From Escherichia coli (GTDB taxonomy: Bacteria > Pseudomonadota > Gammaproteobacteria > Enterobacterales > Enterobacteriaceae), in assembly GCF_044324875.1 (NCBI RefSeq), contig NZ_CP172185.1: a DNA stretch of 64,000 nt, one strand, 5' to 3'. The first letter of the stretch is position 1. Each line of letters begins with the position of its first letter. Positions 1 to 56,498 of the stretch are shown here, piece by piece. A program made the translations under genes and the position numbers. The notes under the pieces were generated by a model, which saw nothing but the letters and a program-made list of their open reading frames with translations, searched no databases and was not told the origin of the DNA.

Positions 1-775
1 ACGAGTCTGTATCATTAGCGTGATGCAGTCTCTGCAAAGGATCTTGTTGATAAAATTGGCAGAAACGTTGCCACAATGAAGGGAAACGAGGAGCAAAAAG
101 TTCTGGGGCGCTAAAGAAATATTCAGAAAGTACGGCAAAACATTCAGCAGGATCACTGGCAGCATAAGCATCAATGCTCGCCGCATTCACGCCAACTAAT
201 TCGATTTCTTCCTGAATGTTGTTCATTGCAGCATGAAGATCGTGTTCCCAGCCAGCAACCTCACGCAACGGAATAAAGGGAACTCCGCTGGCGCGATCGC
301 CGTTACGGGTGTCCAGCTTATGAGCGACTTCATGAATAATCAGGTTAAAACCAGAAGCATCAAAAGAATCTTGTATATCCAACCAGTTCAAAACGATAGG
401 CCCTTGCTGCCAGCTCTGACCTGACTGAACAATACGTTGGTTATGCACCAGACCGATATCGTCTTCCCATTCATCATCGACCACAAATGGCGCAGGATAA
501 ATTAAGACTTCATGAAAACCATCCAGCCATTCCAGTCCTAACTCCAGAACGGGAAGGCAAAATAGAAGTGCTATCCGGCAGCTTCTTAATGAATCCAGTT
601 CAAAGCCCTGTAAAGGAACAAGCCGCTTTTGCTGTAAAAAACGTTCGGCAAGAGTGACTAATTTGCTTTGTTCCTGTTCCGTCAGACACGTTAAAAGGGG
701 GATCGATAGTGCTTCCTGCCAGGGAAGGGCAGTTTGATGTGCTGATTCTTGTACTTTCCAGGGCCACTTAATCAT
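1..775 (-). CDS. mtfA: MtfA (Mlc titration factor A), N-terminal part; 3' end runs off the window start
   Basis: Minus-strand translation from the ATG at 775..773 reads [58 protein letters not shown], recalled as the MtfA N-terminus. No stop before position 1, so it is absent from the ORF track. Confidence 0.8.
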
Positions 776-868: not shown

Positions 869-958
869 GGAGAGATGCCGGAGCGGCTGAACGGACCGGT
901 CTCGAAAACCGGAGTGGGGGCAACTCCACCGGGGGTTCAAATCCCCCTCTCTCCGCCA
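869..958 (+). tRNA. serU: tRNA-Ser (anticodon CGA), 90 nt, long variable arm
   Basis: GGAGAGATGCCGGAGCGGCTGAACGGACCGGTCTCGAAAACCGGAGTGGGGGCAACTCCACCGGGGGTTCAAATCCCCCTCTCTCCGCCA. Anticodon stem CCGGT/ACCGG with loop CTCGAAA gives anticodon CGA. The variable arm differs from the attR copy by two compensatory changes. Confidence 0.9.
898..958 (+). repeat. attL core: 61 bp 3' portion of tRNA-Ser, directly repeated at 47168..47228 with 2 mismatches
   Basis: GGTCTCGAAAACCGGAGT[G/A]GGGGCAACTC[C/T]ACCGGGGGTTCAAATCCCCCTCTCTCCGCCA occurs at both ends of the phage-gene block. Integrase gene lies immediately inside. Confidence 0.75.
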
Positions 959-5692: not shown

Positions 5693-5860
5693 AATGGCAG
5701 CCTCCACGTTGAGTATTGATAACTCACCACCGAGGCTTTCCACGACCATAATGGTGGTGAGACGTACAGGGGTGGAAATACCGGTCAACGTAGAACCCGG
5801 CCAGCCTTGCGGCTGCCCTGCACGCCCCACCATAATCTGAATGTGGCTGTGCTTCACGCA

Positions 5861-5884
5861 TAAAAAAACCGCCTGAGCGCGGTT
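5861..5884 (-). terminator. Rho-independent terminator-like hairpin on the minus strand
   Basis: Minus-strand AACCGC-GCTCAG-GCGGTT followed by a T-run; lies between dicF and the Rha-like gene. Confidence 0.5.
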
Positions 5885-6167
5885 GTGCGCTACGTTTGAC
5901 TTCGGGTTTCCACGCCCGGCACCCGGTTTATGAGGTGCAGGTGCACTATAATTCCACCCGTACTGGTTTTCAATAGCTACATTCAACATTTTCTCTTACC
6001 TTTCATCACCGAAGTGAACTTTGTTGATGCGGTGCCAGGTGCCTCCAGGTGACGTTAACCAGTTAACAATTAACGCCGGATACAGAGAATCCACCCATAA
6101 CTCTGTTTTTGGTTTTAACTGTTCCACGTGCGATCAGCCGCATTCACCACATCACAAAATTCACTTT

Positions 6168-6225
6168 AAAAAGGGCGGCAGAGCAGTCACGGAGTAAAAC
6201 TGATACCGCAAAACGTCACCAGAAA
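6168..6225 (-). ncRNA. dicF: DicF sRNA homolog (ftsZ-targeting sRNA of Qin-type prophages)
   Basis: Minus strand reads TTTCTGGTGACGTTTTGCGGTATCAGTTTTACTCCGTGACTGCTCTGCCGCCCTTTTT, nearly identical to the recalled K-12 DicF (one difference) and ending in its own terminator. Lies downstream of a DicA-like repressor as in Qin. Confidence 0.7.
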
Positions 6226-12549: not shown

Positions 12550-13215
12550 ATGACTATTGCTGATTTCAAACGGCCTAAATTGGAGCTCCCGAACGGGGCA
12601 AACAAACTACTACTGCACTCTTGCTGTGCTCCATGTTCCGGTGAAGTGATGGAGGCGCTTCAGGCCTCGGGAATCGACTACACCATCTTTTTCTACAACC
12701 CGAACATTCATCCTCAGAAAGAGTATTTAATTCGTAAGGATGAAAATATTCGCTTTGCTGAACAACACGGCGTGCCGTTTATCGATGCTGATTACGACAC
12801 CGACAACTGGTTTGAACGTGCCAAAGGAATGGAATGGGAGCCTGAGAGGGGGATCCGTTGTACCATGTGTTTTGACATGCGTTTTGAGCGGACAGCGTTG
12901 TACGCTGCTGAAAATGGTTTCAGTGTGATCAGCAGTTCACTGGGCATTTCACGCTGGAAAAATATGCAGCAGGTTAACGAGTGTGGGCGGCGAGCTGTTG
13001 CGCATTATCCGGGTATGGTGTACTGGGATTATAACTGGCGCAAGCAGGGCGGCTCGTCCCGTATGATTGAAATCAGCAAGCGCGAAAAATTCTATCAGCA
13101 GGAATATTGTGGCTGTGTGTATTCTCTGCGCGATACCAATCTACACCGCAAATCTCAGGGACGCCCTCTTATAAAAATTGGCCAACTCCACTACGGAAAA
13201 GAAGAGAAGGAGTGA
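12550..13215 (+). CDS. queH: QueH-like protein (DUF208; putative cobalamin-independent epoxyqueuosine reductase)
   Basis: 221 aa with N-terminal [10 protein letters not shown] motif, FYNPNIHP...EY, and C-terminal EYCGCVYS cysteines, matching my recollection of DUF208/QueH. Preceded by about 200 bp non-coding with a TTGACA-like element. Confidence 0.6.
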
Positions 13216-13451
13216 TTTTATGGATCACCTTTCTGATTGATTTCATATTGGCGAGGTGACGGGAGTTAAGTAGAATTGCTGCGGGTGCTTGAGGCTATCT
13301 GCCTCGGGCATGAACACCAACGGCAGATAGAGAAAAGCCCCAGTTAACATTATGCGTCCTGCAAGACGCTTAACATTAATCTGAGGCAGAATCTATGTCT
13401 AGCAAATGTAGGTTAGCCTCTTACGTGCCGAAAGGCAAGGAGAAGCAGGCT

Positions 13452-13607
13452 ATGAAGCAGCAAAAGGCGATGTTAGTCGCCCTGATCGTCATCTGTATTA
13501 CCGTCATTGTGACGGCACTGGTAACGAGGAAAGACCTCTGCGAGGTACGAATCCGAACCGGCCAGACGGAGGTCGCTGTCTTCACAGCTTACGAACCTGA
13601 GGAGTAA
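13452..13607 (+). CDS. hok: Hok/Gef-family membrane toxin (type I toxin-antitoxin)
   Basis: MKQQKAMLVALIVICITVIVTALVTRKDLCEVRIRTGQTEVAVFTAYEPEE (51 aa) closely resembles HokD/RelF. Track ORF 13395..13607 carries an in-frame upstream extension. Upstream leader has inverted repeats. Confidence 0.8.
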   Translation: MKQQKAMLVALIVICITVIVTALVTRKDLCEVRIRTGQTEVAVFTAYEPEE

Positions 13608-13711
13608 GAGACCAGGCGAGGGAGAAATCCCTCGCCACCTCTGATGTGTCAGGCATTCTCAACGCACCCGCACTTAACCCGCTTCGGCTGTTCCTTAGTT
13701 TGTCCTGATTT

Positions 13712-14065
13712 TTATTTATTACTAATACATGATTTAATTCCTTGAATCCTCTTGTTTTTTCCATTGGTAGGATCTAACACACCTCGAAGAGAATAAAAAT
13801 CAATAGTGGTAGAGCCGTCTGCTGACTTATAAATGTCGGCATTATCTGCAACTGCTAATACACTGTAATATTTACCAATTTTTTGAGAAGTGATAGTATA
13901 CAAGAGAGGTACACGTTGCCACTCACTGAGAATGCATTCTTGTATTTCTTGTGGTGGAGAATTTGTTTTAAATGAAATGATAATATCCTGCTCTTCTCTA
14001 TAATTATAAGGGTTTACGCATCCAGAAATTGCGAAAGAAAACAGAAGAATAATGATCCTGTTCAT
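13712..14065 (-). CDS. Predicted lipoprotein (about 117 aa from internal Met), AT-rich
   Basis: Internal start MNRIIILLFSFAISGC gives a signal peptide plus lipobox. Gene is markedly AT-rich compared with neighbours. No known family. Confidence 0.55.
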   Translation of the reverse strand: MNRIIILLFSFAISGCVNPYNYREEQDIIISFKTNSPPQEIQECILSEWQRVPLLYTITSQKIGKYYSVLAVADNADIYKSADGSTTIDFYSLRGVLDPTNGKNKRIQGIKSCISNK

Positions 14066-14127
14066 TTTTTTGCCTCTTTTGAAAATATTACTCAATTATT
14101 TTAGTTGCGGTGTGTTATAAGCATTAA

Positions 14128-14427
14128 CTATAAAATATTAGATTCATAATTTTGTCCGCCGTGGTAAACGCCAGCGATAAAGACTTTATTGCCATCAACG
14201 GCAAAAGCAATAATCGTTCTGTGTCGGAAATGAGTTACCCGCATCCCCTGGCGAATATCATCGCGTTTATTGCCCCGATGCGGGAATGTAGAAAACCCAT
14301 CAAGATAATCAAGAAGCGCATTGGCATAATTGTCAGCAATGACGCTTCTTGCTTTCTCCGTTATATATCTGTGCAGGTTTATTATCTGCTGTTCGGCCTC
14401 GGGGGTAATGATGACTTCATATGTCAT
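14128..14427 (-). CDS. parE: ParE-family toxin (type II TA)
   Basis: 99 aa; MTYEVIITPEAEQQIINLHRYI...FRHRTIIAFAVDGNKVFIAGVYHGGQNYE fits ParE/RelE. Immediately downstream of the ParD-like gene. Confidence 0.8.
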   Translation of the reverse strand: MTYEVIITPEAEQQIINLHRYITEKARSVIADNYANALLDYLDGFSTFPHRGNKRDDIRQGMRVTHFRHRTIIAFAVDGNKVFIAGVYHGGQNYESNIL

Positions 14428-14432
14428 GCAGA

Positions 14433-14690
14433 TTACTTCCCGGATCGAATCGCGGCGCGAACCTGTGAAATGGAGCGTCCGTTGTTTGGATTTTCGCGGA
14501 TAGAATCAAGAGAGGGGGCGGCTGAATGCGTTAACCACGCTTCGATTGCTTTATCGCGCTCATTCAGTGCACGAAGCCCTTCACGAATGACCTCGCTTTC
14601 TGAAGCATAGGCACCGGAAGCCACACGGGCGCGCACCATGTCAGCCATCTCGTTAGTTAATGTAATGCTGAATTGTTGGGTTGTACGCAT
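14433..14690 (-). CDS. parD: ParD-family antitoxin (RHH)
   Basis: Internal ATG at 14690 with upstream GAGG. MRTTQQFSITLTNEMADMVRARVASGAYASESEVIREGLRAL is the typical ParD N-terminus. Confidence 0.75.
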   Translation of the reverse strand: MRTTQQFSITLTNEMADMVRARVASGAYASESEVIREGLRALNERDKAIEAWLTHSAAPSLDSIRENPNNGRSISQVRAAIRSGK

Positions 14691-14825
14691 GGTAAACCTC
14701 ACGGAGTAGGATAGAACACTATTCGATGATAGCACGCTGCCTGTTGACGACAACAGAAATCAGAGACAATATTGCCGCACGCCAGCCTGAACAACTGGCA
14801 CCTGCTGCGCCAGCAGAGAAAACAA

Positions 14826-15098
14826 ATGGCGCACAATACCAAAAATCACAATTCTGATGCCGTTCGTGCCAGCAGGCATGGGCGGCGTTCGCGCGTATTT
14901 AAAACCGACTGGTACCAACACCCTCCATGCACTGAAGAACAGGCCGAATGGCTGATTCAGTGTTACCGCAGACACGGATACGAGATTAAGAAAGCCCTCA
15001 GCCTCGATTATCGTCACTGGATAATCTCCGTCAGGCTTCCTTACTCAGAACGCCCACCGCGTCCGTCCCGCACATACCAGCAACGTATCTGGAGGTAA
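14826..15098 (+). CDS. Hypothetical phage protein (about 90 aa)
   Basis: Internal ATG of track ORF 14772..15098; basic N-terminus; stop overlaps the RBS of the next gene. Confidence 0.45.
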   Translation: MAHNTKNHNSDAVRASRHGRRSRVFKTDWYQHPPCTEEQAEWLIQCYRRHGYEIKKALSLDYRHWIISVRLPYSERPPRPSRTYQQRIWR

Positions 15099-15099
15099 C

Positions 15100-16158
15100 G
15101 TGCGGGTATTACTTCGACCTGTTCTGGTACCGGAACTCGGGCTGGTGGTCCTTAAGCCCGGTCGTGAATCCATGCCGGTATTTCACAATCCTCGAGTGCT
15201 GGTGGAGCCGGAACCGAAAAGTATGTGCGGCCTGCCATCCGGAGTCGTCCCTGCCGTTCGCCAGCCGCTGGCGGAGGATAAATCATTACTGCCATTTTTC
15301 AGCGATGATCGGGTGATTCGTGCTGTTGGCGGCGCTGGGGCACTGTCTGACTGGCTGTTGCGTCATGTCAAATCCTGCCAGTGGCCTCATGGTGACTATC
15401 ATCACAGTGAAATCGTCATACATCGTTACGGTACCGGCGCGATGGTGTTGTGCTGGCACTGCGACAACCAGCTGCGTGACCAGACATCCGAATCACTCGA
15501 GCAACTTGCTCATCAAAACCTGTCAGCATGGATGATTGACGTCATCGGTCACGCAATAAGCGGTACGCAGGAGCGTGAATTATCTCTGGCTGAATTATCC
15601 TGGTGGGCGGTCCGCAATCAGGTGGCGGACGCGCTTCCGGAGGCAGTATTACGTCGTTCTCTGGGGTTACGTGCGGAAAAAATCCGCTCCTTGTACCGCG
15701 AAAGCGACATCGTACCGGGAGAGCAGACCGTCACCAGCATACTGAAGCAGCGCACAAAAAATATTGCGCTACCGCCTCTCGTCCACCAGCAACAGAACCC
15801 ACCACAGGAAGAGACGGTGGTCAGCATTGCCGTTGATCCGGAGTCACCGGCTCAGTATCTCCAGCGCCAGAAACCACAACGGGAAGAGATGCCTGTATAC
15901 ACGCGCTGGGTAAAAACGCAGAAATGCATGACGTGCGGTAATCAGGCAGATGATCCGCATCACATCATTGGTCATGGACTGGGAGGGATGGGAACAAAGG
16001 CTGATGATTTGTTTGTTATTCCGCTGTGCCGTAAATGTCATAACGAACTGCACGCCGGGGTAAAAGATTTTGAAGAAAAACACGGCAGCCAGCTGTTGTT
16101 GCTGATTCGTTTTTTAATGCACGCGAGAAATTCAGGTGTCCTGAAGTGGAAAGCATAA
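15100..16158 (+). CDS. DUF968-like phage protein with C-terminal Cys/His (HNH-like) motif
   Basis: 352 aa; GTG start preceded by GGAGG. C-terminal CMTCGNQADDPHHIIGHGLGG...LCRKCHNELH. Position before rusA/Q. Confidence 0.6.
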   Translation: MRVLLRPVLVPELGLVVLKPGRESMPVFHNPRVLVEPEPKSMCGLPSGVVPAVRQPLAEDKSLLPFFSDDRVIRAVGGAGALSDWLLRHVKSCQWPHGDYHHSEIVIHRYGTGAMVLCWHCDNQLRDQTSESLEQLAHQNLSAWMIDVIGHAISGTQERELSLAELSWWAVRNQVADALPEAVLRRSLGLRAEKIRSLYRESDIVPGEQTVTSILKQRTKNIALPPLVHQQQNPPQEETVVSIAVDPESPAQYLQRQKPQREEMPVYTRWVKTQKCMTCGNQADDPHHIIGHGLGGMGTKADDLFVIPLCRKCHNELHAGVKDFEEKHGSQLLLLIRFLMHARNSGVLKWKA

Positions 16159-55870: not shown

Positions 55871-56498
55871 TATGTATTCCCTTGTGATTATAATCTTCAT
55901 GAATATATCAATAAGTGCCGTTATCCAAAAAAAAGCACATTTGGATACTATTCTATGAAGTTCATTTTATTTTAAAGATTACATGTAACAAATATATTTA
56001 AAAGATTTCAAAATGTTTCTAATCTATTTAATATAATTCAGAATTATGAATTCTAAATATAAATATTCATGAAAATTATAAATGTATATCAATATGTTAT
56101 GAGTTGAGCGGAAACATAGGGGGTATCAATGATTGTTGCGCCAAACGGCTGGTGTGATCACGCGCACATTAATGAAGGCATAAAAAAAGCCGGCATCATG
56201 CCGGCCCAAAAAAAATAAACAAGACGATAAAAGGCTAATAACGGAAGCATCATGACACAGAATAATAAAAAGGTATAATTGTAATCAGTGCTAATATATT
56301 GATTGAATGAATTAATAAAGCCGATATCAAAGATAAATAAAATCGCTCAAAACGATTTTTCCTGTATTCACTGCCGTTGCGCAAAAATTATCTATTTGTT
56401 CAAAAAATGATTGAGTCTTGACTGGCTCATCCAATGTGGAAAAATGTGACTTTTATCACATAATAGTACTAAGTCTGAATTTTCCGGGTTATCTCAAA

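What the first reader, a model, noticed from the sequence alone, without database searches (positions are those of the whole stretch)
13216..13607. Hok-family type I toxin locus with structured leader
A 51 aa Hok/Gef-type toxin ORF is preceded by a leader with several inverted repeats (for example CTATCTGCC...GGCAGATAG and GCGTCCTGCAAGACGC), resembling hok mRNA fold-back elements. An antisense Sok-like RNA is expected on the minus strand but was not mapped. Hok/Sok loci are reported to exclude some phages.
Basis: partly seen in the sequence, partly recalled or inferred. Interest (0 to 1): 0.5.

Follow-up and report, generated by a model that had tools for sequence, protein, structure and literature searches.

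The report
Prophage hokD-type hok/mok/sok toxin–antitoxin locus
This is an ordinary, already-annotated kind of E. coli prophage "hok/sok" killer-gene cassette, in which a small membrane toxin is kept silent by mRNA folding and an antisense RNA; it appears complete except that a neighbouring gene insertion has cut off its own transcription terminator.

Summary
Window 13248-13688 holds a complete hokD/hokW-type hok/mok/sok type I toxin-antitoxin cassette. It sits in the nin region of a lambdoid prophage of E. coli.

- **Toxin:** the 51-aa ORF (13452-13607) matches Pfam Hok/Gef at E=1.7e-23. It is identical to RefSeq WP_000813267.1, annotated "HokD".
- **Leader:** it matches Rfam RF01794 at 114.9 bits.
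- **Folding:** the full-length mRNA folds into the textbook closed form, with 5' tac pairing to 3' fbi and the mok Shine-Dalgarno pairing to ucb (z = -7.2).
- **Antisense RNA:** I mapped Sok to the minus strand at 13403->13327. It has a -35/-10 promoter, a 16-nt single-stranded 5' tail and a terminator hairpin. The mapping is by homology to the annotated K-12 sokC.

- The repeats it named are the 5' hairpin and the tip of the Sok-terminator hairpin. They are not the fold-back element.
- The real fold-back element (fbi) lies at 13657-13669, outside its coordinates.

One anomaly: the canonical hok terminator is cut in its loop at 13688 by a 1.1-kb convergent lipoprotein-ParE-ParD module.

The nearest tested relative is hokW-sokW of phage Sp5 (92.8% DNA identity). 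It also lacks that terminator and is functional.

Verdict: already known, low interest.

The parts
13248..13276 (+). hok promoter: -35 TTGGCG (13248-13253), 17-nt spacer, -10 TAGAAT (13271-13276)
   Evidence: It is the only sigma-70-like site found in 13100-13800 (9/12 matches). The -10 and its flank AGTTAAGTAGAAT are conserved across cassettes, whereas the -35 region falls into a few classes.
13283..13294 (+). Inferred hok mRNA 5' end (G13283) and tac (translational activator) element GGGUGCUUGAGG
   Evidence: Rfam model position 1 aligns here, 7 nt after the -10. In the full-length fold it pairs with fbi 13657-13669, in a 63-nt nascent fold with ucb, and in longer nascent or truncated RNAs with 13301-13311 as the metastable hairpin. 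The transcription start is inferred, not measured.
13295..13330 (+).
   Evidence: It is 98.4% paired across 103 unique cassettes, with compensatory changes at 13297-13328 (A-T 81, G-C 19) and 13303-13322 (C-G 92, T-A 8).
13335..13343 (+). ucb (upstream complementary box / anti-SD), AAGCCCCAG
   Evidence: It pairs with the mok SD region 13381-13387 in the full-length MFE fold (98% paired in homologues). It pairs with tac in the open form (98-99% paired).
13344..13379 (+).
   Evidence: The 16 nt are an insertion relative to the Rfam consensus and are absent from K-12 hokC and PPompW-type cassettes. Stems are 96-97% paired in homologues.
13383..13386 (+). mok Shine-Dalgarno GAGG
   Evidence: It lies 8 nt upstream of the mok ATG. 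It pairs with ucb in the closed form or with dcb 13416-13420 in the open form (98% paired in homologues).
13395..13607 (+). mok reading frame (70 aa), in frame with hok and containing it
   Evidence: ORF list. The same architecture is annotated as mokC in K-12 and as mokW in VT2-Sakai.
13388..13403 (+). Predicted Sok 5'-tail target (sokT), spanning the mok start codon
   Evidence: It is complementary to the 16-nt single-stranded 5' tail of the predicted Sok RNA. 13388-13409 is the most variable 22-nt segment of the cassette (mean pairwise identity 0.627).
13416..13420 (+). dcb (downstream complementary box) GCCUC
   Evidence: Rfam consensus structure. The constrained open fold costs only +1.5 kcal/mol in the truncated mRNA. 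Pairing is 98% in homologues.
13327..13403 (-). Predicted Sok antisense RNA (about 77 nt): 16-nt 5' tail, long hairpin 13387->13338, then UUUUCUCUAU
   Evidence: The ends were transferred by alignment from the annotated K-12 sokC ncRNA. Fold -30.2 kcal/mol, z=-5.21. Expression was not tested.
13410..13438 (-). Sok promoter: -35 TTGCCT (13438-13433), 17-nt spacer, -10 TAACCT (13415-13410)
   Evidence: Read from the sequence. Spacing to the sokC-equivalent start G13403 is 6 nt. The hexamers are kept as TTGCCT/TAACCT or TTGACC/TAATCT in 103 cassettes. It is below the threshold of the simple promoter scan (7/12). It abuts dcb, as in R1 (PMC9841398).
13437..13442 (+). hok Shine-Dalgarno AAGGAG
   Evidence: It lies 9 nt upstream of the hok ATG and is conserved in all aligned cassettes, including the 5'-truncated K-12 hokD.
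13452..13607 (+). hok toxin gene, 51 aa
   Evidence: Pfam PF01848 E=1.7e-23. Identical to WP_000813267.1, annotated 'type I toxin-antitoxin system toxin HokD'. 49/51 identical to K-12 HokD.
13590..13595 (+). Tyr47-Glu48 codons TAC GAA, a TadA A-to-I editing motif (would recode Tyr47 to Cys)
   Evidence: Read from the sequence. ACGAA follows the T at this site in at least 90 of 103 cassettes, from the haplotypes listed. The interpretation comes from bioRxiv 10.1101/2025.08.07.668861. Editing was not tested here.
13615..13636 (+). 3' UTR hairpin GGCGAGGGA-GAAA-UCCCUCGCC; predicted protective 3' stem-loop of the processed (truncated) mRNA
   Evidence: Repeat I5 and folds. 94% paired, with compensatory changes at several pairs. 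The role is inferred by analogy with R1 (PMC9841398).
13657..13669 (+). fbi (fold-back inhibitory element) UCUCAA-C-GCACCC
   Evidence: It pairs with tac 13283-13294 (12 bp, 1-nt bulge) in the MFE and centroid folds. 94-96% paired in homologues. Forcing the open form costs +9.4 kcal/mol when fbi is present, against +1.5 without it.
13676..13688 (+). Remnant of the canonical hok terminator: 5' arm AACCCGC, loop TTCG, then GC; the 3' arm and T-run are missing
   Evidence: L001, Evi, Tritos, PPompW and K-12 hokD read AACCCGCTTCGGCGGGTTTT(T)G.... Window homology stops at 13688. No terminator-like site was found on either strand in 13100-15200.
13689..14775 (-). Inserted convergent module replacing 36 bp of the L001-type sequence: lipoprotein-like ORF 13712-14095, ParE/RelE toxin 14128-14427, ParD antitoxin 14433-14753 (longest ORF)
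   Evidence: BLAST breakpoints. ParD TIGR02606 E=2.9e-14. Homologous modules are annotated RelE/ParE and ParD in E. coli genomes. The lipoprotein-like ORF matches phrog_914, function unknown, and has no Pfam hit.

Best explanation
Window 13248-13688 is a structurally complete hok/mok/sok type I toxin-antitoxin cassette of the hokD/hokW type. It is carried between the replication genes and the Q antiterminator of a lambdoid prophage in E. coli. What the sequence and folding show: a sigma-70-like promoter would give an mRNA starting at about 13283. Its 5' end (tac) base-pairs with the 3' UTR element fbi. This closed form holds the mok Shine-Dalgarno in a helix with ucb, so neither mok nor the coupled hok is translated. 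By analogy with plasmid R1 (inferred): slow 3' trimming back to the 13615-13636 hairpin removes fbi. The leader can then switch to the nearly iso-energetic open form (tac/ucb plus SD/dcb). That form is translatable and also exposes the target of Sok. Sok is a roughly 77-nt unstable antisense RNA made from the minus strand (13403->13327). Its 5' tail pairs across the mok start, blocks mok and hok translation, and marks the duplex for RNase III. If Sok synthesis stops, through prophage induction, transcription shut-off or loss of the element, the stable mRNA pool is translated. The 51-aa Hok then inserts into the inner membrane and depolarises or lyses the cell. Full toxicity may also need TadA editing of Tyr47 to Cys (inferred). 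Most likely biological role, by analogy with hokW-sokW: it accelerates lysis and phage release on induction and acts as an addiction module for the prophage. The missing terminator probably changes the mRNA 3' ends but does not abolish function.
For: Toxin family: Pfam PF01848 E=1.7e-23. The protein is identical to one annotated HokD in RefSeq. Leader: Rfam RF01794 at 114.9 bits. Closed fold: tac/fbi and SD/ucb pairings appear in both the MFE and centroid structures, z=-7.17. Alternative pairings of tac appear in shorter transcripts. The open form costs +1.5 kcal/mol without fbi and +9.4 with it. All helices are 94-99% paired in 103 unique homologous cassettes, with compensatory changes in the 5' and 3' hairpins. 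Sok: the ends map by alignment to the annotated K-12 sokC. The hairpin plus U-tract has z=-5.21. The promoter hexamers are conserved. Context: lambdoid early-region genes lie on both sides. The same QueH-hok arrangement at 96-97% identity is annotated hokD; 677 of 5426 complete E. coli genomes cover at least 80% of the query. Function of relatives: hokW-sokW (92.8% DNA identity) is a working type I TA that is triggered by prophage induction and doubles phage release (PMC8621323). K-12 HokD peptide served as a toxic positive control in bioRxiv 10.1101/2025.08.07.668861. The mechanism is described in PMC9841398.
Against: No expression or toxicity data exist for this locus. The Sok promoter matches the consensus at only 7/12 positions and was not picked up by the simple scan. 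The canonical hok terminator is truncated, and no terminator-like site follows for about 1.5 kb, so mRNA 3'-end formation and stability are uncertain. The unconstrained MFE of the truncated mRNA is the metastable/closed form, not the open one. NCBIfam Hok models score below their curated cut-offs (48.6 against 73). Native chromosomal hokA, hokB and hokC loci were reported unable to mediate post-segregational killing (summarised in bioRxiv 10.1101/2025.08.07.668861).
Confidence: 0.85

Rival explanations
1. The cassette looks intact but is functionally silent, a decaying chromosomal or prophage relic. Loss of the terminator would give unstable, heterogeneous, read-through hok transcripts, so no stable toxin mRNA pool accumulates and Sok loss has no consequence.
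For: The terminator is truncated at 13688 and no terminator-like site lies downstream. The window-type junction occurs once among 103 unique cassettes. In K-12, hokC is disrupted in its 3' UTR by IS186 and hokD has lost its whole 5' regulatory region. Native chromosomal hok loci failed PSK tests (bioRxiv 10.1101/2025.08.07.668861, introduction).
Against: Every other element is intact: both promoters, tac, ucb, SD, dcb, the mok and hok ORFs, the 3' hairpin and fbi. fbi itself is retained. Sp5 hokW-sokW also lacks the canonical terminator, yet both of its RNAs are detected and it is active (PMC8621323). Three other E. coli genomes carry hok joined to the same convergent ParDE module without the terminator.
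Confidence: 0.15
2. The cassette is functional, but its main role is defence of the lysogen against other phages by abortive infection. An infecting lytic phage shuts off host transcription, Sok decays and Hok kills the cell early. On this view it does not mainly help its own prophage.
For: R1 hok/sok on a high-copy plasmid reduced T4 plating efficiency by 42% and plaque size by about 85% (as quoted in PMC8621323 and PMC10305079). The locus lies in a prophage accessory-gene (moron) region next to a Ren-like exclusion protein and a ParDE module.
Against: Hok and its neighbours have no hit in PADLOC. hok genes are reported as not enriched near defence systems (section title in bioRxiv 10.1101/2025.08.07.668861). 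The nearest tested homologue promotes release of its own phage (PMC8621323). The roles are not mutually exclusive.
Confidence: 0.25
3. A chance small ORF with chance inverted repeats, with no gene present.
For: None beyond the small size of the ORF.
Against: Pfam E=1.7e-23, Rfam E=2e-25, fold z=-7.2, and conservation in thousands of genomes and 110 phage records.
Confidence: 0.01

Closest known systems
hokW-sokW (mokW) of Stx2 prophage Sp5 / phage VT2-Sakai, E. coli O157:H7
   Same: 92.8% DNA identity over window 13263-13679. It has the same promoter -10, tac, ucb, 16-nt palindrome, SD, dcb, in-frame 70-aa mok, 51-aa hok, 3' hairpin and fbi. It is prophage-borne and also lacks the canonical CCCGC...GCGGG terminator. 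It was shown experimentally to be a type I TA, with a sokW region of 71 nt complementary to the hokW 5' UTR (PMC8621323).
   Different: The Hok proteins differ at 6 of 51 residues, mostly at the C-terminus. The Sok 5'-tail target differs at many positions (AGAATCTATGTCTAGCAAATGT against TCAATCCATGCTGAACACATGT), so cross-neutralisation is doubtful. hokW lies near the end of the phage genome, not in the nin region. The downstream junction and neighbouring genes differ.
hokD (relF, b1562) of cryptic prophage Qin, E. coli K-12
   Same: 49/51 identical toxin. The DNA is near-identical from the hok SD through the 3' hairpin and fbi. Both sit in a lambdoid prophage upstream of a DUF968 (ydfU)-type gene and a Q antiterminator. 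PGAP names the window's exact protein HokD.
   Different: K-12 hokD has lost everything upstream of the hok SD (promoter, tac, ucb, mok start, sok), replaced by relBE, but keeps the terminator. The window has the complete 5' regulatory region, with QueH upstream, but has lost the terminator.
hokC/mokC/sokC (gef) of E. coli K-12
   Same: The leader can be aligned from the -10 to hok. mok is in frame. The annotated sokC ncRNA aligns to window 13403->13327. Rfam RF01794 hits both at similar scores (114.9 and 118.3 bits).
   Different: HokC is 50 aa and differs from the window Hok at about 7 residues. hokC lacks the 16-nt palindrome, so sokC is 59 nt against about 77. Its 3' UTR is interrupted by IS186 and fbi is removed.
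hok/mok/sok (parB) of plasmid R1, the paradigm
   Same: The same named elements and the same predicted conformational logic: closed full-length form through tac/fbi, open truncated form through tac/ucb and SD/dcb, and a Sok promoter abutting dcb (PMC9841398).
   Different: It is plasmid-borne and the toxin is much more distant (HokW, the window's near relative, is 44% identical to R1 Hok; PMC8621323). R1 was not aligned here. R1 stabilises a plasmid by post-segregational killing, a role not shown for prophage copies.

Membership tests
[quoted passage not shown] | Small Hok/Gef membrane toxin (Pfam PF01848) | tested here: met
   E=1.7e-23, model 1-42/42. Conserved C15, T17, L29, C30, E31 and E40 match the invariant logo positions reported in bioRxiv 10.1101/2025.08.07.668861 (offset -1). 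NCBIfam Hok subfamily model NF007279 scored 48.6 bits, below its cut-off of 73.
[quoted passage not shown] | Upstream overlapping mok reading frame with its own SD, to which hok translation is coupled | tested here: met
   The 70-aa in-frame ORF 13395-13607 is preceded by GAGG 13383-13386. This matches the annotated mokC and mokW. Translational coupling itself was not testable.
[quoted passage not shown] | Long-range 5'-3' pairing (tac/fbi) that locks the full-length mRNA | tested here: met
   12-bp tac/fbi helix in the MFE and centroid folds. 94-96% paired across 102 homologues. No compensatory test was possible, because tac was fixed by the search pattern.
[quoted passage not shown] | Alternative leader pairings: SD/ucb (closed) against tac/ucb plus SD/dcb (open), plus a metastable 5' hairpin | tested here: met
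   The closed form is the MFE. The metastable hairpin and tac/ucb appear in nascent-length folds. The open form is +1.5 kcal/mol in the truncated RNA and +9.4 in the full-length RNA. Pairings are 98% conserved. The open form is not the MFE of the truncated RNA.
[quoted passage not shown] | cis-encoded antisense Sok RNA with its own promoter, overlapping the mok translation start | tested here: met
   In silico only. Promoter at 13438-13410, start G13403 and end 13327 by alignment to the annotated sokC. Terminator hairpin plus U-tract, z=-5.2. Hexamers conserved.
[quoted passage not shown] | Toxicity of Hok and its neutralisation by Sok | not testable with these tools
   Indirect only. hokW-sokW, at 92.8% DNA identity, is functional (PMC8621323). 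K-12 HokD (49/51 identical) served as a toxic positive control (bioRxiv 10.1101/2025.08.07.668861).
[quoted passage not shown] | Own intrinsic terminator after fbi (typical of the cassette, not strictly defining) | tested here: not met
   The canonical hairpin is cut at 13688. No terminator-like site was found in 13100-15200. It is present in at least 59 of 103 cassettes.
Rfam RF01794 ('sok') | Bit score at or above the gathering threshold (59) | tested here: met
   114.9 bits over the full model 1-157 at 13283-13457. The model matches the hok sense strand. In K-12 it hits the strand opposite to the annotated sokC.
HokD orthologue group (K-12 b1562 / RelF) | Near-identical toxin at the equivalent prophage position (upstream of DUF968/ydfU and Q) | tested here: met
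   49/51 identical. The exact protein WP_000813267.1 is named HokD by PGAP. DUF968, RusA and Q lie downstream. The K-12 neighbours relBE and rem are absent.

The most novel reading that the evidence does not exclude
Because the convergent lipoprotein-parE-parD module replaced hok's terminator, hok transcripts may read into the module as antisense RNA. Module transcripts may likewise read into the hok 3' UTR and coding region. That would couple a type I and a type II toxin-antitoxin system through mutual antisense transcription or transcriptional interference. The arrangement recurs, with a different junction, in other E. coli prophages.
Probability: 0.08. Interest if true: 0.4.

Novelty: already known. 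Interest (0 to 1): 0.12.

Why it matters
It matters little beyond correct annotation. Hok/sok cassettes occur in most E. coli genomes and are enriched in prophages, and this toxin allele is already in RefSeq as HokD.

The locus does have some modest uses:
- **Reference for K-12 hokD:** it shows what that truncated locus looked like before relBE replaced its 5' regulatory half.
- **Natural terminator test:** it is a terminator-less variant that could test how much the hok mRNA 3' end matters.
- **Sok specificity:** it carries a Sok-target haplotype not seen in the other 102 cassettes, which bears on Sok specificity between co-resident cassettes.
- **Annotation warning:** the Rfam 'sok' family reports the sense strand.

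Tried and rejected
- **Promoter scan for Sok:** the simple sigma-70 scan found only the hok promoter and no minus-strand promoter. Sok's promoter had to be placed by eye, by conservation and by homology.
- **Alternative Sok -10:** I considered TACATT (13410-13405). I rejected it because its last T is not conserved among cassettes (G, T or A in the aligned cassettes) and no usable -35 lies 16-18 nt upstream. TAACCT/TAATCT keeps TA...T.
- **Truncated mRNA fold:** unconstrained folding did not give the open conformation. Only constrained folding showed it is near-iso-energetic.
- **Replacement terminator:** I searched 13600-15200 on both strands and found none. A weak TCAGG/CCTGA pairing before the T-run at 13709-13713 was noted by eye but is not supported by the folds.
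- **Family libraries:** PADLOC gave no hit for Hok, the lipoprotein, ParE, ParD, QueH or the Ren-like protein. NCBIfam Hok models were sub-threshold. Pfam gave nothing for the lipoprotein-like ORF.
- **tac/fbi covariation:** this could not be assessed, because my collection pattern fixed the tac sequence.
- **Permissive Rfam search:** on 13100-13900 it added only chance-level hits.

Full report
**1. Observation.** The + strand carries a 51-codon ORF (ATG 13452, TAA 13605-13607) encoding MKQQKAMLVALIVICITVIVTALVTRKDLCEVRIRTGQTEVAVFTAYEPEE. CTATCTGCC/GGCAGATAG lie at 13295-13303 and 13322-13330. GCGTCCTGCAAGACGC lies at 13354-13369. None of this is chance:
- Pfam HOK_GEF (PF01848) matches at E=1.7e-23 over the whole model.
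- Rfam RF01794 matches 13283-13457 at 114.9 bits, against a gathering score of 59.
- The predicted mRNA folds 7.2 standard deviations better than dinucleotide shuffles.

**2. Origin and context.** The flanking chromosome (yedJ-dcm region) is 99.9% identical to E. coli genomes. The locus lies inside a lambdoid prophage. Upstream are a repressor, a cro-like gene, a cII-like gene, O-like and DnaC-like replication genes, a Ren-like gene and QueH. Downstream are DUF968, RusA and Q. The same QueH-hok arrangement, at 96-97% identity, is annotated "hokD: type I toxin-antitoxin system toxin HokD" in the best-matching complete genomes. Of 5426 complete E. coli genomes, 677 cover at least 80% of the query and 4727 hold some related copy. 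The window's Hok is identical to WP_000813267.1. Related cassettes occur in 110 phage records, including Stx2 phages.

**3. Anatomy of the sense RNA.** The only sigma-70-like site is TTGGCG-17-TAGAAT (13248-13276). It places the start at about G13283, where the Rfam model also begins. Folding 13283-13675 gives the textbook closed full-length hok mRNA as both MFE and centroid:
- the 5' element tac (13283-13294) pairs with fbi (13657-13669) as 12 bp with one bulge;
- the mok Shine-Dalgarno region (13381-13387) pairs with ucb (13337-13343).

Shorter transcripts show the other pairings of tac described for R1 (PMC9841398). Longer nascent and 3'-truncated RNAs form the metastable hairpin of tac with 13301-13311. 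Forcing the open form (tac/ucb plus SD/dcb, which is the Rfam consensus structure) costs +1.5 kcal/mol when the RNA ends at 13645. It costs +9.4 kcal/mol when fbi is present. So fbi biases the leader towards the closed state by about 8 kcal/mol. mok (13395-13607, 70 aa) is in frame with hok, as in mokC and mokW. The strong hairpin at 13615-13636 is the likely 3' end-protecting stem of the processed mRNA (inference from PMC9841398).

**4. Mapping Sok.** The Rfam 'sok' hit is on the hok strand. I checked K-12: RF01794 hits the hokC/mokC strand (L012 502-654, minus strand), while the annotated sokC ncRNA is on the other strand (553-611, plus strand). The model therefore describes the sense leader and does not by itself locate Sok. 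Aligning K-12 hokC with the window transfers the sokC ends to G13403 (5') and 13327 (3') on the minus strand. Upstream lie TTGCCT (13438-13433), a 17-nt spacer and TAACCT (13415-13410). That leaves 6 nt between the -10 and the start. The promoter abuts dcb, as reported for R1 (PMC9841398). The 77-nt RNA folds into a 16-nt free 5' tail, a long hairpin and UUUUCUCUAU (-30.2 kcal/mol, z=-5.2). The 5' tail is complementary to 13388-13403, across the mok AUG. It is absent from the Rfam consensus, from K-12 hokC and from PPompW-type cassettes.

**5. Comparison across relatives.** I collected loci from IMG/VR with the exact pattern GCGGGTGCTTGAGGCT. With the loci fetched from E. coli genomes and phages, this gave 103 unique 580-nt extracts.
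- **Cassette boundaries.** Column entropy is low from about 13265 to about 13672-13690 and rises sharply outside.
- **Helix conservation.** Every helix is 94-99% paired. Compensatory changes occur in the 5' hairpin (13297-13328 A-T 81, G-C 19; 13303-13322 C-G 92, T-A 8) and in the 3' hairpin. tac was fixed by the search pattern, so tac/fbi covariation could not be tested.
- **Sok promoter.** It is kept as TTGCCT/TAACCT or TTGACC/TAATCT.
- **Most variable stretch.** Inside the cassette this is the Sok-tail target, 13388-13409. Its mean pairwise identity is 0.627, against 0.74-0.94 elsewhere, with 25 haplotypes. The window's haplotype is seen only once.

**6. The one anomaly.** In L001, phages Evi and Tritos, PPompW and K-12 hokD, fbi is followed by AACCCGC-TTCG-GCGGGTTTT(T)G..., an intrinsic terminator. 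In the window, homology stops at 13688, inside that hairpin. It resumes at 14776. The intervening 1087 bp replace 36 bp and carry three minus-strand genes: a lipoprotein-like ORF, parE and parD. No terminator-like site was found on either strand in 13100-15200. This junction is unique among the 103 cassettes, and at least 59 of them keep the canonical terminator. Three E. coli genomes join hok to a 88-90% identical module at a different point, right after GCACC. The window looks like a recombinant that crossed at the shared T(T/C)GGC. The terminator is not indispensable. Sp5 hokW-sokW also lacks it, yet both of its RNAs are detected and it is active (PMC8621323).

**7. Mechanism and role.**
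- **Shown here:** all sequence elements are present, and the predicted folds behave as the R1 model requires.
- **Inferred:** 3' processing, Sok-directed RNase III cleavage, membrane toxicity, and the trigger.

The closest tested system, hokW-sokW (92.8% DNA identity), loses sokW on RecA-dependent prophage induction. It then makes HokW about 1 h before endolysin R and doubles phage release (PMC8621323). I therefore favour a prophage-serving role, meaning lysis assistance and addiction. Exclusion of other phages is a secondary, non-exclusive possibility. The T4 exclusion data are for R1 on a high-copy plasmid. PADLOC has no model that matches Hok or its neighbours. Tyr47-Glu48 is TAC GAA (13590-13595), the TadA editing motif that would recode Tyr to Cys and allow a disulfide with Cys30 (bioRxiv 10.1101/2025.08.07.668861). 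This was not tested here.

**8. Membership and novelty.** The locus meets every testable defining feature of the hok/sok family and of the HokD orthologue group. It fails only the typical, non-defining own-terminator feature. K-12 hokD is the mirror image. It keeps the terminator but has lost the promoter, tac, ucb, mok start and sok to relBE. The finding is already known. The protein is in RefSeq under the HokD name. The cassette is common in E. coli prophages. hok enrichment in prophages has been described (bioRxiv 10.1101/2025.08.07.668861). Interest is low, at 0.12.

**9. Dead ends.**
- The simple promoter scan missed Sok.
- An alternative -10 (TACATT) was rejected on conservation.
- Unconstrained folding of the truncated RNA did not give the open form.
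- NCBIfam Hok models were sub-threshold.
- Pfam and PADLOC gave nothing for the lipoprotein-like ORF.

Noticed in passing
window 13283-13457 (+); L012 502-654 (-) against sokC 553-611 (+): Rfam RF01794, named 'sok antitoxin', models the sense hok mRNA leader from tac to the hok AUG. It hits the strand opposite to the annotated K-12 sokC ncRNA, so automated annotation with it would place 'sok' on the wrong strand and about 100 nt too long.
   Followed up: yes
window 13388-13409: The Sok 5'-tail target (mok start region) is the most variable stretch inside an otherwise conserved cassette. Mean pairwise identity is 0.627 against 0.74-0.94 elsewhere, with 25 haplotypes in 103 cassettes. The window's haplotype AGAATCTATGTCTAGCAAATGT was seen only here. 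This could reflect selection for non-cross-reacting Sok/hok pairs among co-resident cassettes.
   Followed up: partly
window 13676-13688 and 13689-14775: The canonical hok terminator is cut within its loop by a 1087-bp convergent module (lipoprotein-like ORF, ParE, ParD). The junction is unique among 103 cassettes. The best E. coli complete-genome match to 13600-15100 is only 90% identical. The spot just 3' of fbi is a recurrent recombination point, with many different downstream sequences.
   Followed up: partly
window 13354-13369; L001, L008, L010: The loop of the 16-nt palindrome GCGTC-CTGCAA-GACGC is TTGCAG in 10 cassettes. That is the exact reverse complement of the window's loop, as expected from hairpin inversion by template switching rather than two independent substitutions. 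Another 20 cassettes have CGGCAA.
   Followed up: partly
window 13590-13595 and 13547-13552: Tyr47-Glu48 is TAC GAA, the TadA A-to-I editing motif, and ACGAA follows the T at this site in at least 90 of 103 cassettes from the listed haplotypes. A second UACGAA lies at 13547-13552, where editing would be silent (GTA Val32); it is present in 79 cassettes.
   Followed up: partly
L010 (E. coli STEC1585), aligned to window 13289-13290: One cassette has tac CCGAGG instead of UUGAGG. This turns two G-U pairs of the metastable hairpin into G-C pairs but creates two mismatches with fbi. It is a natural variant that should shift the folding balance.
   Followed up: no
window 12550-13215 (+): An epoxyqueuosine reductase QueH gene (named from RefSeq annotation of L001 and L002; phrog_3217) sits in the prophage early region immediately upstream of hok. 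It is an auxiliary tRNA-modification gene carried by the phage.
   Followed up: no
window 5750-6224 (-), 56182-56271 (-), 869-958 (+): Rfam finds C4 antisense RNA (5750-5837), isrK (5862-5938) and DicF (6173-6224) clustered on the minus strand of the prophage, and rseX at 56182-56271 in the chromosomal flank. A tRNA-Ser(cga) lies at 869-958 and may be the prophage attachment site.
   Followed up: no
L012 (K-12 hokC) and L013 (K-12 hokD): The alignment shows directly how the K-12 copies are damaged. IS186 interrupts the hokC 3' UTR hairpin and removes fbi. hokD homology starts only at the hok SD, with relBE upstream.
   Followed up: yes
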